A stretch of 29,418 nt of DNA from a virus (IMGVR_UViG_3300033073_001657:1-29418); one strand, 5' to 3'; counted from the stretch's first letter, positions 7,727 to 24,771 are shown. Notes: generated from the letters alone by a model not told the origin. Translations and numbers: made by a program.

Positions 7727-8155
7727 ATGACGATTGCACAAGCACTAAAAGAAAAGAATAAGAAAGTAGCAAAGATTCAAAAACTTTGGGAAAAGATCCA
7801 TCGATATAACTCTATCCAAGAAGGATCAGAAAGACCGTATAGTACTTCTGAGTTATTTCAACAAGTTCACGCTGAAGTTGGGCTACTTGTTGAGTTGAAA
7901 ACTAAAATTCACGAAGCATCCTCTCCAGTTAGAGGAGACATTTTCTCCCTTTCAGAAATGAAAAATTTCGTACAAAGAGTAAAATCAGTAAGCACAACAC
8001 AGGGAGCTTTTCGTGACAGATATGAAAGTACTACCTCCATAATGGTTGCAGAACTTGATATCAAGTGGCAAGATGCAAAGATCGAAGAGCTTGAAGAAAA
8101 AATAGAAAAGCTTCAAGAAAAATTAGATCAGTTTAATCATACTGCCCAGATTTAA
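7727..8155 (+). CDS. Coiled-coil protein resembling the DIP1984-like family
   Basis: MTIAQALKEK, YNSIQEGSERPY, LVELKTKIHEAS and ELDIKWQDAKIEELEEKIEKLQEKLDQFN match the pattern I recall for DIP1984-like proteins (MKLAEAL...VQEG..P...). The ORF itself is clear; the family call is moderate. Confidence 0.6.
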   Translation: MTIAQALKEKNKKVAKIQKLWEKIHRYNSIQEGSERPYSTSELFQQVHAEVGLLVELKTKIHEASSPVRGDIFSLSEMKNFVQRVKSVSTTQGAFRDRYESTTSIMVAELDIKWQDAKIEELEEKIEKLQEKLDQFNHTAQI

Positions 8156-8160
8156 GAAAC

Positions 8161-8346
8161 ATGGGCAATCTTAGTTAGAGTAGAGTATCATAAGCTTTTA
8201 CTAGACAGCAAAGTCTATTACATTCTTGAAAAGATGGTACGATCGTGATCCTGAACTCAAACTTCCTGATACAAGAGCTCAAACAGTAATACTTATTCTC
8301 TCAAAACTCGGTAGCTAATTTTACTTTCTCTTCTAAGAGAGCCCAC
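8161..8346 (+). ncRNA. Candidate structured RNA downstream of the DIP1984-like gene
   Basis: No ORF. The ends pair: 8162-66/8341-45, 8169-74/8333-38, 8177-80/8328-31, 8182-87/8322-27. Internal stems at 8202-06/8213-17, 8218-21/8286-89 and 8224-28/8272-76. CTCAAA at 8256, 8278 and 8300. Confidence 0.6.
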
Positions 8347-8354
8347 CATACTAA

Positions 8355-8380
8355 AAAAGAGGACGTATTTGTCCTCTTTT
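8355..8380. terminator. Bidirectional intrinsic terminator
   Basis: Perfect inverted repeat AAAAGAGGAC-GTATTT-GTCCTCTTTT between convergent gene blocks. Confidence 0.85.
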
Positions 8381-8385
8381 GTTGT

Positions 8386-8988
8386 TTAGCTAATATATTT
8401 AATAATTCTTAGTGGGTCTGAATATTCAGAAGGAGGACTTGCGTCAGTTGGATCCTGTACACCGTCTAAATCATAATCATTATAAATAGATCCATAACCA
8501 ATAGTTCCATTAGGTGAACTTCCGCCTTGTGGTAAATCAGACTGATTAGTCAATTGCTCCATTAATTTCCATCGAACTACCGTTTCTCCAGTAACAAGTT
8601 TTAAGGTAATCGATTTTCTTTTTTCTTGTAATATCGTACCTACTCCTATTGAGTATCCTGGATTTCCAGATGGTTGTGAGGCAGCAGTTTCCGTATATAC
8701 TTCATCATAAAAGTCAATTAAATCTTCAATATTTGAAAATATTAAATCGTTTCCGTTAATTGAATGGATATTACTTGTCTGTGCTATTACTGACTCTACA
8801 TCAGCTATTGGATATATCCAAGAAGTATTAATTATTACGATATATTTATTAAGTAGTGCACTAGATCCAGCAGCTGCCGCTGCCATCGCTGCACTATACA
8901 TAGCTTGTTCGAAAAGAATTTGCTCTTCCATTTCTTTACGAGCTTTCAATTGTTCCGGAGTCTCATGTCCCCAATTTATAAATGACAT
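8386..8988 (-). CDS. Hypothetical protein
   Basis: 200-aa ORF with an Ala-rich linker (AAMAAAAAGSSA); last gene of the minus-strand head block. Confidence 0.75.
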   Translation of the reverse strand: MSFINWGHETPEQLKARKEMEEQILFEQAMYSAAMAAAAAGSSALLNKYIVIINTSWIYPIADVESVIAQTSNIHSINGNDLIFSNIEDLIDFYDEVYTETAASQPSGNPGYSIGVGTILQEKRKSITLKLVTGETVVRWKLMEQLTNQSDLPQGGSSPNGTIGYGSIYNDYDLDGVQDPTDASPPSEYSDPLRIIKYIS

Positions 8989-9008: not shown

Positions 9009-9728
9009 TTAGATCTTTATTTTATAGGCAGTTGTCTTAGCGACTCCTTTTAATTCTTTTAGCGGTTCACATGAGTGTAACTGTAATTCTGAAAGTAATC
9101 GACCACTTCGCTTACGTTTACCTTCCCAACATCTTTGTTGATAATCAATAATCTCTAGCTTACGACTCTTCTTAGAAACCAAGTCTTCGATTTTCTTCTC
9201 TTCATCTTTAGGCAAAGCATCGGTAAAACTAAAGGACACATATCCAGGTTCAGAAACAGTCGATTCCATTCTAGATGCAGTGTTTACTGTGTTTCCAAAA
9301 TAGTCCCATAATTTCTTGCCTTGAATATCAGTCTGTTTCTTATATAGTGGGCCCCAGCAGATTCCTAATCGGATTGTCATGTTCTTATCCTTAATCTTGA
9401 TCGGATCGTTCTTAAGGTCTTCCTGTATCTCCATGCCTGCTTCTACCGCTCTAAGTAAAGAGTCCTTTCCTTCAAAGCTTACCATATAGCTATCACCAAT
9501 CGTTTTTACTATCATTCCATTGAATTTTGAGACGACCTTTATCATTCTTTTACTATGCTCTTCTAGTGCATCAAACATGCCAGATTGGTGTAGTTTCCAT
9601 AATTTGGAACTCGACTTAACGTCCGTAAAAAGTATAGCCTGTTCTTTCTCTTCAAGCTTTTTTAGAGAGTCAATGCTCTCCCAAATTGGATATGAGACTA
9701 AGTATTTCATTGATCGAGGATCTTGCAT
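9009..9728 (-). CDS. Class III adenylate cyclase (stand-alone catalytic domain); alternative start at ATG 9710
   Basis: ILFTDVKSS (metal Asp 1), IVKTIGDSYM (Lys + metal Asp 2), IRLGICWGP, WDYFGNTVNTASRME (Asp, Asn, Arg). Confidence 0.9.
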   Translation of the reverse strand: MQDPRSMKYLVSYPIWESIDSLKKLEEKEQAILFTDVKSSSKLWKLHQSGMFDALEEHSKRMIKVVSKFNGMIVKTIGDSYMVSFEGKDSLLRAVEAGMEIQEDLKNDPIKIKDKNMTIRLGICWGPLYKKQTDIQGKKLWDYFGNTVNTASRMESTVSEPGYVSFSFTDALPKDEEKKIEDLVSKKSRKLEIIDYQQRCWEGKRKRSGRLLSELQLHSCEPLKELKGVAKTTAYKIKI

Positions 9729-9740
9729 CTTTAATTGTAA

Positions 9741-10109
9741 TTATTTTAGAGTCAATAAATACTTAAGCTTATTGATTGCGCCTAGCATCTCATCTCGTAG
9801 GTTTAAAAGATCGCTGTCCTTATTACTATCTAGCTTATGATTAAAAGATAATAAGAATTCAGTGATAGTCTCTAAGAATTCCTCTATGTTAACCTCTCCA
9901 ATGTTTCCCAATAAGATAGCATCTGATTCTCCTTCTAGGGCAACTCTTCCATATTTACCCATATATGTTTCCATAAACTCGTCTGATAGGTCACTAAGGG
10001 TATCATAGATTCCACCGTATGCTTGATGTTTAGCATAAGATTGCGTTTGCCAATGAAACACTTTAAATTGAGACTGTATCCCTAAGAAGGTTGACATTAA
10101 ACTTGTCAT
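9741..10109 (-). CDS. Ferritin/Dps-like four-helix protein (DUF5856-like); start probably ATG 10109
   Basis: KVFHWQTQSYAKHQAYGGIYD...DEFMETYMGKYGR and DLLNLRDEMLGAINKLKYLLTLK. The longer 10148 start would run through the promoter motif. Confidence 0.75.
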   Translation of the reverse strand: MTSLMSTFLGIQSQFKVFHWQTQSYAKHQAYGGIYDTLSDLSDEFMETYMGKYGRVALEGESDAILLGNIGEVNIEEFLETITEFLLSFNHKLDSNKDSDLLNLRDEMLGAINKLKYLLTLK

Positions 10110-10128
10110 AATTTTTATAAGTTTTTTA

Positions 10129-10137
10129 TTATTTATC
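10129..10137 (-). promoter_or_regulatory. T4-late-like promoter GATAAATAA(TAAAA)
   Basis: Lies between the capsid terminator and ATG 10109. Confidence 0.6.
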
Positions 10138-10146
10138 TCAATAAAC

Positions 10147-10177
10147 AAAAAAAGAGGACTCTTTCGAATCCTCTTTT
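10147..10177 (-). terminator. Intrinsic terminator after the major capsid gene
   Basis: Minus strand GAGGATTC-GAAA-GAGTCCTC followed by 7 T. Confidence 0.85.
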
Positions 10178-13896: not shown

Positions 13897-14907
13897 TTAA
13901 GTTTTATTTTCGTAATCTGATAATATCGATTTTAATTTTAATAAATCTTCATTCGATATGTCTTCTATTTGAGGCAACACGACATTAAACTTGACTAAGT
14001 ATTCTCCAATCTTTCCTTGATCGTTTAATATTCCTTCATTAGGTATTGAGAATTTTAAATTTGAAGCAGACTTGGGATTATTAAAATCGACTTCATACTT
14101 CTTATTTACCAGGGTTTCAATCTTTGTCTTTTCTTCACCTGCCAAGACTCTAATTAGCGGAATATCGACTGTGTGGATTATTCTATTCTCTTCAATCTTT
14201 ATTTTTTCTGGAACTATTAATTCTAATGTGACTAATAGATCTCCCATTAGAGGAACCTGTTCAATATCGCCCCATATGTTTAATTGACTGCTGACATCCT
14301 CATTTCCAAGCTTAGGCACTCTTGCCGATACTATATAAGCTTCACCATCTCTTTTGATAAGAATATATTTTGATCTTAGATCAATAGTTATCGCTATATC
14401 CCTCTCCTCTTCTATTTTATCAAAGGTCAAAAGGTTGCCTGATTTTCCAGTATAATTGATTTTTTCTCGAGTAAAGCTCAGTTCAATCTTTTTTCCCAAC
14501 ATTGCATCCTTTAACTCTAGCTTATCATGAACATATATGTTTAGATGATCTGTGCTTGGTGGAGCGGAATGAGTTTTACCCTGAGTTTTTCTAGCTCTTT
14601 CAGATGATCTTCTCCTAAAGTCAGAGTCTGAAAAATTTCTAACGAAATCATCAAATCCAAATCCACCAGAAGTCTCGCTAAATCTGCTTGAATTCCAAGG
14701 ATTTGAGTTCTTTTTATCGTATTCTGCTCTCTTCTTCTCATCACTCAATACCGTATATGAATCTGAAATCTTTTTAAAGAGTTCCTCTGACTCCTTATCA
14801 CCATTCGTTTTATCTGGATGATATTTTATTGCGAGTTTTCGATATGCTTTTTTTATCTCGTCTTGGGTAGCAGTTTTTGAAACTCCTAAGTTCGTATAGT
14901 GATCCAT
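13897..14907 (-). CDS. dnaJ: DnaJ-like chaperone (J domain + C-terminal domain, no Zn finger)
   Basis: [32 protein letters not shown] (HPD motif), G/F-rich GGFGFDDF, C-terminal IPNEGI...[12 protein letters not shown]. Confidence 0.9.
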
Positions 14908-24603: not shown

Positions 24604-24771
24604 TTATTTTAAAGTATCGATTGGCTCATTATCATTTCCACACTTATGGCATACATATAAATCATCGCCTCCATCAACGATTGCCCAATTCCATCCACAA
24701 TTATCACATATGATACGAGTATCCGTTACCTTTTCAAATATGTAAGTAACGTGGTTTAAAATATACTTCAT
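24604..24771 (-). CDS. 55-aa zinc-ribbon protein
   Basis: Below the ORF-track cutoff. MKYILNHVTYIFEKVTDTRIICDNCGWNWAIVDGGDDLYVCHKCGNDNEPIDTLK*, with CxxC...CxxC. Confidence 0.8.
   Translation of the reverse strand: MKYILNHVTYIFEKVTDTRIICDNCGWNWAIVDGGDDLYVCHKCGNDNEPIDTLK

What the first reader, a model, noticed from the sequence alone, without database searches (positions are those of the whole stretch)
7727..8380. Candidate protein + structured-RNA module: DIP1984-like gene followed by a ~190-nt self-closing RNA with 22-nt-periodic CUCAAA motifs
Seen: this is the only long non-coding stretch in an otherwise gene-dense window. It starts 5 nt after the stop of the 142-aa coiled-coil gene and ends just before a strong terminator. 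Its ends form an interrupted ~21-bp closing helix (TGGGC/GCCCA, TCTTAG/CTAAGA, AGAG/CTCT, AGAGTA/TACTTT). Inside are a hairpin TAGAC-AGCAAA-GTCTA and stacked helices TTAC/GTAA and TCTTG/CAAGA. CTCAAA recurs at exactly 8256, 8278 and 8300, and the middle copy bulges out between two helices. TCCTGA also occurs twice (8249, 8264). Inference: the element is a co-transcribed ncRNA whose repeated single-stranded CUCAAA sites could be bound by several copies of the adjacent protein. That would make a ribonucleoprotein, an RNA antitoxin/titration module (type III TA-like logic) or an autoregulatory 3' element. I know of no described function for this pairing.
Basis: partly seen in the sequence, partly recalled or inferred. 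Interest (0 to 1): 0.82.

Follow-up and report, generated by a model that had tools for sequence, protein, structure and literature searches.

The report
Heptad-repeat RNA behind DIP1984-like gene
Directly after a small phage gene of unknown function lies a conserved, folded non-coding RNA of about 186 bases carrying a row of 7-base units. The same gene-plus-RNA pair recurs in well over a hundred phage and bacterial loci, sometimes inside the RtcB RNA-repair operon. It matches no catalogued RNA family, so it is probably an undescribed RNA-protein particle.

Summary
Between the stop of the 142-aa gene (7727-8155) and the terminator (8355-8380) lies a roughly 186-nt element (8162-8348). Its ends form a 27-bp interrupted helix.

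The window alone is not convincing: fold z is -1.5 and CTCAAA is not enriched. Comparison settles it:
- The element follows this gene on the same strand in essentially every one of about 230 related loci that has enough flank.
- All 35 modelled base pairs show compensatory changes (84% paired against 61.5% in shuffles).
- No reading frame is conserved.
- Rfam 15 has no match.

The conserved core is an invariant UAC, three GAU, and about eight 7-nt units (lag-7 z = 25.6).

The protein has the DIP1984 fold (PDB 3KDQ) and is predicted to self-associate. In Verrucomicrobiota, Kiritimatiellia and Victivallaceae genomes (the PVC group) the pair sits between rtcR and rtcB/rtcA, the slot that Rsr and Y RNAs hold in Salmonella. 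In one phage clade the next gene is an RNA-repair HAD domain.

Most likely it is a protein-RNA particle acting in RNA damage or repair. Binding and expression are not shown. This scan has already reported the same pair on other DNA; I found no published description.

The parts
7727..8155 (+). Gene for a 142-aa helical protein, a DUF6847/DIP1984-like family member
   Evidence: Pfam PF20935 29.8 bits against a cut-off of 27. NCBIfam DIP1984_fam 39.3 bits, below its cut-off of 70. AF2 model pLDDT 92.7. Best solved fold 3KDQ: Foldseek TM 0.70, VIA Z 13.2, rmsd 3.1 over 140 residues.
8162..8348 (+). The whole conserved non-coding RNA element (about 186 nt). Its true 5' and 3' ends are not mapped.
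   Evidence: Covariance model R1 matches 8161-8351 and full-length matches lie at the same place in relatives. One copy in the 95.9-kb record. No Rfam match.
8162..8196 (+). 5' strand of the closing helix (27 pairs in 6 segments)
   Evidence: Folds. All pairs show compensatory changes in 29 sequences, with helix segments 72-95% paired.
8313..8345 (+). 3' strand of the closing helix
   Evidence: As for the 5' strand. G-U pairs outnumber A-C mismatches 93 to 39, which fixes the + strand.
8202..8217 (+). Hairpin P2 (5 bp, 6-nt loop)
   Evidence: In the centroid fold. 5 of 5 pairs have changes on both sides, 79% paired (helix 8).
8219..8221 (+). UAC, invariant in the 13 close relatives (A3) and present in 23 of 29 rows of A7
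   Evidence: Invariant columns in alignment A3; consensus in A7.
8233..8249 (+). Three GAU (8233, 8241, 8247), conserved across all subgroups
   Evidence: Alignments. Consensus of 99 distinct sequences.
8256..8309 (+). Array of about eight 7-nt units: CUCAAAC UUCCUGA UACAAGA g CUCAAAC AGUAAUA CUUAUUC u CUCAAAA CUC. It is predicted to be mostly unpaired.
   Evidence: Family periodicity lag 7 z = 25.6, lag 3 depleted. Bacterial subset lag 7 z = 18.4. Unpaired probability 0.66 here against 0.21-0.26 in the clamp strands. No Watson-Crick covariation inside the core.
8345..8348 (+). ACCA directly after the closing helix. This is a tRNA-acceptor-like end found only in the window's subgroup.
   Evidence: CCC-R-CCA is kept in about 20 of 29 sequences of A7, even where the helix changed to GGGU/ACCC. 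It is absent from subgroups B-D. ARAGORN finds no tRNA or tmRNA.
8355..8380 (+). Intrinsic terminator (11-bp stem, then a T run). An A run lies before it, so it can also serve the convergent gene 8386-8988.
   Evidence: Scan. The stem sequence differs among relatives but the hairpin is kept.

Best explanation
The stretch encodes a non-coding RNA of an undescribed family. It is made as the 3' end of the DUF6847/DIP1984-like gene's transcript and ends at the terminator.

Its two ends pair into a long clamp. The clamp holds out a loop of about 115 nt (8197-8312) with one small hairpin, an invariant UAC, three GAU, and a mostly single-stranded rail of about eight 7-nt units.

I propose that copies of the adjacent protein, which self-associates, dock along this rail at one site per 7 nt. 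This is the way HutP and TRAP read evenly spaced triplets. The result would be a protein-RNA particle.

The particle would work in the response to RNA damage. In bacteria the pair sits where Rsr and Y RNAs sit in RtcR-controlled rtcBA operons. In the phage it would shield or help mend tRNA or other RNA attacked by host ribonucleases.

Shown: the RNA is conserved, structured, non-coding, periodic and genetically coupled to the gene; the protein has the DIP1984 fold; RNA-repair genes recur as neighbours.

Inferred: co-transcription, protein-RNA binding, stoichiometry and biological role.
For: (1) Conservation. Sequence-profile or model matches lie on the + strand just after the gene in 152 of 232 searched loci, with no match elsewhere in them. 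The searches span phage, metagenome and genome collections and protein identity down to about 39% in the phage and metagenome loci. All but three of the unmatched phage/metagenome loci, which are cut short after the gene, and every bacterial locus I read (one, L212, has a stop inside the match, so no downstream sequence was read) show the same layout.

(2) Structure. On 29 sequences, 84.2% of cells pair against 61.5% in shuffles. There are 211 double changes against 60. Slid controls pair at 33-51%. All 35 pairs have compensatory changes.

(3) Strand and coding. G-U 93 against A-C 39. No conserved frame or start codon. Lag-3 periodicity is depleted.

(4) Rail. Lag 7 z = 25.6 over 179 distinct elements, with harmonics at 14-15, 22 and 29-30. 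An independent bacterial subset gives z = 18.4. The rail is predicted unpaired and shows no pairing covariation.

(5) Coupling. The gene is the only neighbour shared by 79 phage loci. Of 11 loci found from the RNA side, 10 have the gene upstream. RNA nucleotide identity is roughly equal to that of the gene.

(6) Protein. DIP1984 fold. Invariant basic and polar residues: ALKxKNK at the N terminus, N28, S29, H62, K79, and nearly invariant R98 and Y99. Four-copy model: score 0.64, best of 3 controls 0.20. That mark was reached by 20 of 30 proteins solved as pairs of one chain and by 1 of 23 solved as single chains. Runs agree in at least 94% of contacts and partner pLDDT is at least 87. Caveats: the calibration used two copies, my own alignment was used, and the relative 3KDQ is solved with several chains, so the pass may come from memory.

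(7) Context. The order rtcR, gene, about 310 nt, rtcB, rtcA occurs in a Verrucomicrobiia genome. Rtc genes flank the gene in 9 PVC-group loci. HAD_SAK_2, an RNA-repair HAD domain, is the next gene in a cluster of 19 phage loci. A HEPN protein lies two genes downstream in a planctomycete. The Salmonella operon is rsr-yrlBA-rtcBA under RtcR (PMC7790460).
Against: - No binding, expression or end-mapping data exist for this RNA.
- The protein fold has no known RNA-binding precedent.
- The window's own rail is degenerate: only three clean CUCAAA units, and lag 7 z = 1.1 in the window alone.
- This 95.9-kb phage record (about 38% complete) has no RtcB or Ro60, and its neighbours (topoisomerase, small lipoprotein-like ORFs, a cyclase) say nothing about RNA repair.
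- Most planctomycete and Bacteroidota loci are not in rtc operons.
- The covariation counts come from an alignment fitted to the model.
- Profile matches to GC-rich bacterial elements are marginal (E 8e-4 to 0.2), so homology of the phage and bacterial RNAs rests partly on shared layout.
Confidence: 0.55

Rival explanations
1. The RNA works without the adjacent protein, as a decoy, sponge or sensor. Its rail of UCAA-type units would be bound or cut by another factor, such as a host anticodon nuclease, a HEPN RNase or an RNA chaperone. The protein would have a separate though related role.
For: The conserved single-stranded rail. Defence and RNase neighbours in bacteria. For the analogous YrlA RNA, a role as competitive inhibitor of an anticodon nuclease has been suggested (PMC7790460). 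U-CAA-R-A resembles the loop of a tRNA with anticodon CAA (my own reading, untested).
Against: The near-absolute linkage and 0-8 nt spacing to one protein family across phyla is what a direct partnership predicts. The units are not presented in 7-nt hairpin loops. No other conserved neighbour exists.
Confidence: 0.2
2. It is a cis-acting 3' UTR element that controls stability, processing or translation of the gene's own mRNA (autoregulation). It would not be a stable free RNA or particle.
For: It starts 0-8 nt after the stop codon and ends at a terminator.
Against: About 190 nt with sequence conservation equal to the coding region and an eight-unit periodic rail is far more than stabilising 3' hairpins need. 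The pairing survives insertion of a small ORF or 130 nt between gene and RNA (L053, L056, L061, L068, L023). The window subgroup keeps an ACCA end that suggests excision.
Confidence: 0.12
3. It is a type III-like toxin-antitoxin pair in which the RNA neutralises a toxic protein.
For: A protein gene with a repeat-bearing RNA in mobile elements and defence islands.
Against: The RNA lies downstream, not upstream behind a terminator. TRF finds no tandem repeats. The units are 7 nt, not about 36 nt. The protein is a helical hairpin bundle with no nuclease family match. The pair occurs inside housekeeping-type rtc operons.
Confidence: 0.04
4. It is not an RNA at all: either a DNA-level element (protein-binding iterons or an origin) or a decayed or small ORF.
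For: Periodic short repeats can be DNA sites. A 30-codon TTG frame (8226-8318) exists.
Against: Compensatory changes keep pairing, with G-U pairs allowed on the + strand only. Orientation relative to the gene is fixed. The frame is open for only 11-61 codons and mostly lacks a start. A 7-nt period is not a DNA helical repeat, and lag 3 is depleted.
Confidence: 0.03

Closest known systems
Ro60 (Rsr) with bacterial Y RNAs (YrlA/YrlB), including the Salmonella rsr-yrlBA-rtcBA operon under RtcR (PMC4201824, PMC7790460)
   Same: A protein gene with its own non-coding RNA of about 100-200 nt beside it. The RNA ends pair into a long stem. The pair is found in bacteria and in phages. In PVC-group genomes it occupies the same slot between rtcR and rtcB/rtcA. 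The window subgroup's G-C helix followed by ACCA recalls the tRNA-like features of YrlA.
   Different: The protein is a 142-aa helical hairpin bundle (3KDQ fold), not a TROVE/vWA ring. There is no TROVE gene in this record. The RNA has no tRNA-like domain, matches no Rfam Y RNA model, and has a 7-nt periodic rail that Y RNAs lack. The stem is not conserved in sequence.
HutP on the hut terminator RNA and TRAP on the trp leader (Bacillus): oligomeric proteins reading evenly spaced triplets
   Same: Short conserved triplet-like motifs (CAA/UCA) are repeated at a fixed short period in single-stranded RNA (7 nt, as I recall for HutP: triplet plus 4-nt spacer). The partner protein is predicted to oligomerise.
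   Different: No homology of the protein to HutP or TRAP. The rail is enclosed in a stable clamp inside a separate RNA after the gene, not in a leader that controls termination. Binding is unproven.
Type III toxin-antitoxin systems (ToxIN)
   Same: A protein and a repeat-bearing RNA encoded side by side, in phages and defence islands.
   Different: Gene order, repeat length and arrangement, and protein fold all differ.
CsrB/RsmZ-type sponge RNAs
   Same: Many copies of one short motif on one RNA, able to hold several protein copies.
   Different: Those motifs (GGA) sit in hairpin loops and bind CsrA, which is encoded elsewhere. Here the motifs are strictly phased and the RNA is welded to one protein gene.

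Membership tests
DUF6847 / DIP1984 protein family (PF20935, NF038048, PDB 3KDQ) | Match to the Pfam model above its gathering score | tested here: met
   29.8 bits against 27, residues 15-141 on profile positions 6-140.
DUF6847 / DIP1984 protein family (PF20935, NF038048, PDB 3KDQ) | Match to the NCBIfam DIP1984_fam model above its curated cut-off | tested here: not met
   39.3 bits against 70, E 6.8e-10. It is a distant subfamily rather than a core member.
DUF6847 / DIP1984 protein family (PF20935, NF038048, PDB 3KDQ) | Same fold as the solved member 3KDQ | tested here: met
   Foldseek probability 1.00, TM 0.70. VIA Z 13.2, rmsd 3.1, 140 residues aligned, next hit Z 9.0.
Heptad-rail RNA that trails DIP1984-like genes (undescribed; known only from this scan's notes) | Lies directly after the gene on the same strand, before a terminator | tested here: met
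Heptad-rail RNA that trails DIP1984-like genes (undescribed; known only from this scan's notes) | Ends pair into a long helix kept by compensatory changes | tested here: met
   (27 clamp pairs, all with changes on both sides).
Heptad-rail RNA that trails DIP1984-like genes (undescribed; known only from this scan's notes) | Row of about 7-nt periodic units in the enclosed loop | tested here: met
   Family lag 7 z = 25.6. The window's copy aligns unit for unit but is degenerate; alone it gives lag 22 z = 2.6.
Y RNA (Rfam Y RNA models; YrlA) | Match to an Rfam Y RNA model | tested here: not met
   No match at gathering score in the window, and none up to E 10 in 7900-8600.
Y RNA (Rfam Y RNA models; YrlA) | Encoded near a Ro60/TROVE gene | tested here: not met
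   No PF05731 match in the 95.9-kb record, which is only about 38% complete.
Y RNA (Rfam Y RNA models; YrlA) | tRNA-like domain | tested here: not met
   ARAGORN finds nothing. Only an ACCA tail after the stem in this subgroup.
Type III toxin-antitoxin (ToxIN-like) | Tandem RNA repeats of about 30-40 nt upstream of the toxin gene | tested here: not met
   The RNA is downstream. TRF finds no tandem repeat.
Type III toxin-antitoxin (ToxIN-like) | Toxin is an endoribonuclease that processes the repeats | tested here: inconclusive
   No nuclease family or fold match. Activity was not testable.
tRNA / tmRNA | Cloverleaf, or tRNA-like domain with a tag frame | tested here: not met

The most novel reading that the evidence does not exclude
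DUF6847/DIP1984 proteins and their heptad-rail RNAs form a widespread, so far unrecognised ribonucleoprotein. A protein oligomer is laid out along a phased single-stranded rail held in an RNA clamp. The particle stands in for Ro60-Y RNA in RtcR/RtcB RNA-repair operons. T4-like and larger phages carry it as a counter-measure to host RNA-cleaving immunity.
Probability: 0.35. Interest if true: 0.88.

Novelty: new variant of a known kind. Interest (0 to 1): 0.78.

Why it matters
If the pair is a particle, it would give a function to a large orphan protein family. That family has 1702 clusters at 50% identity and a crystal structure that has lain unexplained since 2009. It would also add a new, very widespread structured RNA family to the catalogue.

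It would name a second, unrelated protein-RNA accessory of the Rtc RNA-repair system, whose Ro60/Y RNA arm is itself still poorly understood.

For phage biology, it would be a candidate RNA-based counter-defence or RNA-repair aid carried by freshwater T4-like phages.

The strict 7-nt phasing makes the binding model directly testable.

Tried and rejected
- **Rfam 15:** nothing at gathering score in the whole window. Only chance-level rows up to E 10 in 7900-8600.
- **ARAGORN:** no tRNA or tmRNA.
- **Small ORF (8226-8318, frame WYDRD..ELK):** rejected. The frame is open for only 11-61 codons, is mostly without a start, has 1-2-nt indels between close relatives, and shows no 3-nt periodicity.
- **Minus-strand RNA:** rejected by G-U against A-C counts and by fixed orientation.
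46.9% paired against 45.1% in shuffles, no covariation.
- **CUC/GAG helix (8256-8258 with 8275-8277):** only weak support (helix 9). I do not rely on it.
- **Pairing inside the core:** mutual information finds no Watson-Crick covarying pairs.
- **RNAalifold on plain MAFFT alignments:** recovered only parts of the clamp.
- **Second, broader covariance model:** I used nhmmer profiles instead.
- **Expression:** no RNA holder listed. The four 'RNA?' runs that I laid are low-depth contigs, probably DNA, and do not cover the element informatively.
- **Phage collection:** only one distant tblastn hit for the protein.
no match to PF20935 or to my profile. The tool notes that an empty answer shows nothing.
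- **Literature:** no paper holds DIP1984, DUF6847 or PF20935. 'Septicolysin' papers only name the gene on Acinetobacter plasmids. '3KDQ' gives only false hits. No paper holds both RtcB and septicolysin.
- **Burroughs and Aravind 2016 survey of RNA-repair systems:** could not be read. It is not held under the identifiers I tried from memory, so a mention there is not excluded.
- **One locus (L281):** has an RNA-profile hit without the gene. It lies in A-rich sequence beside a terminase-like gene and looks like a false positive. Not resolved.

Full report
**What is in the window**

The window is a fragment of a T4-like phage genome. It encodes a Gp23-type capsid protein and both type II topoisomerase subunits. 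The record is 95.9 kb and about 38% complete.

The gene at 7727-8155 encodes a 142-aa helical protein. After its stop there are 230 bases without a credible ORF, then the convergent gene 8386-8988.

- the four segments of the closing helix;
- the hairpin 8202-8217;
- CTCAAA at 8256, 8278 and 8300;
- TCCTGA at 8249 and 8264;
- an 11-bp terminator at 8355-8380.

The closing helix and the hairpin are in the minimum-energy and centroid folds.

The window alone would not convince anyone. The fold z-score is -1.5 on either strand. CTCAAA is not enriched in the window. TRF sees no tandem repeat.

**Comparison settles that the element is real**

Relatives of the protein were collected from three collections:
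- viral contigs, 85 loci;
- metagenome contigs, 80 loci;
- genome contigs, 67 loci.

In close relatives (81-83% protein identity) the intergenic stretch is conserved block by block. The terminator stem and everything after it are not. The closing helix changes by paired substitutions.

Sequence profiles of the element match once per locus, always on the + strand just after the gene. After three rounds they match 152 loci, with no match elsewhere and none on the minus strand.

I read the unmatched phage and metagenome loci, and a sample of the GC-rich bacterial ones. All with enough flank show the same layout. Three phage/metagenome loci were cut too short after the gene, and the bacterial locus L212 has a stop inside the match, so nothing downstream of it was read.

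Nucleotide identity of the RNA to relatives (68-87%) is about the same as that of the coding region (70-80%).

**Structure, strand and coding**

I built a covariance model with 35 pairs: a clamp of 27, a hairpin of 5, and a 3-bp CUC/GAG helix. It finds full-length matches at the expected place in 29 diverse loci.

On that alignment:
- 84.2% of cells pair, against 61.5% in shuffles;
- there are 211 double changes, against 60;
- the slid controls pair at 33-51%;
- every pair has compensatory changes.

The alignment is fitted to the model, which inflates these counts somewhat. The slid controls and the wholly different clamp sequences in subgroups B, C and D and in planctomycetes argue the same way.

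G-U pairs outnumber A-C mismatches 93 to 39, so the RNA is read from the + strand.

The one frame that looked conserved (WYDRD..ELK) is open for only 11-61 codons and usually has no start codon. Lag-3 periodicity is depleted, not enriched.

Rfam 15 has no match. ARAGORN finds nothing.

**Anatomy of the conserved core**

Inside the clamp lie, in order:
- the hairpin P2;
- an invariant UAC (8219-8221);
- a variable stretch;
- three GAU (8233, 8241, 8247);
- a row of 7-nt units.

In most relatives the row reads CUCAAAA UUCAAGA UUCACGA g UUCAAAA and so on, then UCAAAAnUC.

Self-similarity over 179 distinct elements peaks at lag 7 (z = 25.6), with harmonics at 14-15, 22 and 29-30. The 44 distinct bacterial elements, taken alone, give z = 18.4 at lag 7.

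The window's copy is a worn member: CUCAAAC UUCCUGA UACAAGA g CUCAAAC AGUAAUA CUUAUUC u CUCAAAA CUC.

The rail is predicted mostly unpaired: 0.66 in the window against 0.21-0.26 for the clamp strands. It shows no Watson-Crick covariation.

**Coupling of gene and RNA**

Among 79 phage loci, the gene is the only ORF family they all share. The next most common neighbour is in 25 loci.

I also started from the RNA side with a 16-mer of the rail. Of 11 loci that also match the RNA profile, 10 have the gene directly upstream. The eleventh looks like a false positive.

The record holds one copy.

The RNA starts 0-8 nt after the stop codon, or overlaps it, in most loci. The pairing survives a small zinc-ribbon ORF or a 130-nt insert between the two.

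**The protein**

- It passes Pfam DUF6847 (29.8 against 27) but not the stricter NCBIfam DIP1984 model.
- The AlphaFold model (pLDDT 92.7) has four helices and a small beta-hairpin.
- Its only clear structural relative is 3KDQ, the uncharacterised Corynebacterium diphtheriae protein: TM 0.70, Z 13.2.
- Invariant residues are mostly basic or polar (ALKxKNK, N28, S29, H62, K79).
- A four-copy model passes the tool's mark: score 0.64, best of 3 controls 0.20. That mark was reached by 20 of 30 proteins solved as pairs of one chain and by 1 of 23 solved as single chains. Runs agree in at least 94% of contacts and partner pLDDT is at least 87.
- Caveats on that model: the calibration used two copies, my own alignment was used, and a relative is solved with several chains, so memory is possible.
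- The family is large: 1702 clusters at E up to 0.001.

**Context that hints at function**

- In a Verrucomicrobiia genome the order is rtcR (divergent), the gene, about 310 nt, rtcB, rtcA.
- Rtc genes flank the gene in 9 loci of Verrucomicrobiota, Kiritimatiellia and Victivallaceae, even with only 1.2 kb of flank.
- This is the slot that rsr and the Y RNA genes yrlBA hold in the Salmonella operon. [quoted passage not shown] Y RNAs are likewise encoded next to Ro60 in bacteria and phages (PMC4201824).
- In a cluster of 19 phage loci, the gene after the RNA carries HAD_SAK_2, a domain named for RNA-repair proteins.
- A planctomycete locus has a HEPN protein two genes downstream.
- The Arcicella locus abuts a type I restriction island.
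- The window's own neighbours give no such hint, and the record has no RtcB or TROVE gene.

**Mechanism and rivals**

I rate three things as shown:
- a conserved, structured, non-coding, + strand RNA of a new family;
- its obligate genetic pairing with this protein subfamily;
- its 7-nt rail.

I infer, at about 55%, that the self-associating protein docks along the rail to form a particle. I infer, with less confidence, that the particle serves RNA-damage responses and, in the phage, counter-defence.

The rivals are:
- an RNA that acts on another factor as a decoy or sensor (0.2);
- a purely cis-acting 3' UTR element (0.12);
- a type III-like toxin-antitoxin pair (0.04), which fails on gene order, repeat type and protein fold;
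- a DNA element or small ORF (0.03).

**Novelty**

No paper in the library mentions DIP1984, DUF6847 or PF20935. Nothing links RtcB with 'septicolysin'. I could not read the 2016 survey of RNA-repair systems.

Earlier agents of this scan have reported the same gene-plus-RNA pair on other DNA: bacteria, archaea and phages, with heptad rails and Rtc neighbours. My results were obtained on this window's relatives and agree with them.

I could not reproduce the note that phage T5 has the pair.

Measured against public knowledge, the element appears undescribed. It works like known protein-RNA pairs (Ro60-Y RNA; HutP or TRAP with phased triplets), but both of its parts are unrelated to them.

Noticed in passing
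window 9009-9728 (-): Stand-alone class III nucleotide cyclase (Guanylate_cyc, E 3.6e-21). It also matches Pycsar cyclase models (PycC, E 2.6e-11). It lies two genes from the RNA, in a phage.
   Followed up: partly
window 8345-8348: In the window's subgroup, the G-C-rich end of the clamp is followed by a conserved ACCA, with a 5' AU leader before GGGC. This is a tRNA-acceptor-like end that could direct RNase P and 3' trimming. It is absent from the other subgroups.
   Followed up: partly
L053, L056, L061, L068 (about 1940-2160); L023 1930-2056: A small Cys-rich (zinc-ribbon-like) ORF, or in L023 a G+C-rich insert of about 130 nt, sits between the gene and the RNA without disturbing either.
   Followed up: no
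L038 2461-3042 and 18 further phage loci: The gene after the RNA in a cluster of 19 phage loci carries HAD_SAK_2 (the 'Swiss Army Knife' RNA-repair HAD domain, E 1.3e-20). An Hsp70 gene lies upstream (L038 99-1409).
   Followed up: partly
L238 9682-11271; L234 9684-15404: Bacterial neighbours of the pair: a HEPN_LA2681 protein in a planctomycete, and a type I restriction-modification island with a PBECR3 gene in Arcicella aurantiaca.
   Followed up: no
window 7727-8155: The coding sequence itself shows 21-nt self-similarity (z = 4.0), as expected of coiled-coil heptads. This is unrelated to the RNA's 7-nt period.
   Followed up: no
window 13897-14907 (-): Phage-encoded DnaJ homologue (DnaJ plus DnaJ_C domains). 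Relatives of another subgroup encode Hsp70 beside the DUF6847 gene.
   Followed up: no
window 24604-24771 (-): A 55-aa ORF with two CxxC pairs (zinc-ribbon-like) fills part of the only other sizeable gap between large genes.
   Followed up: no
window 9741-10148 (-): DUF5856 protein (E 3.3e-18) between the cyclase and the capsid gene.
   Followed up: no
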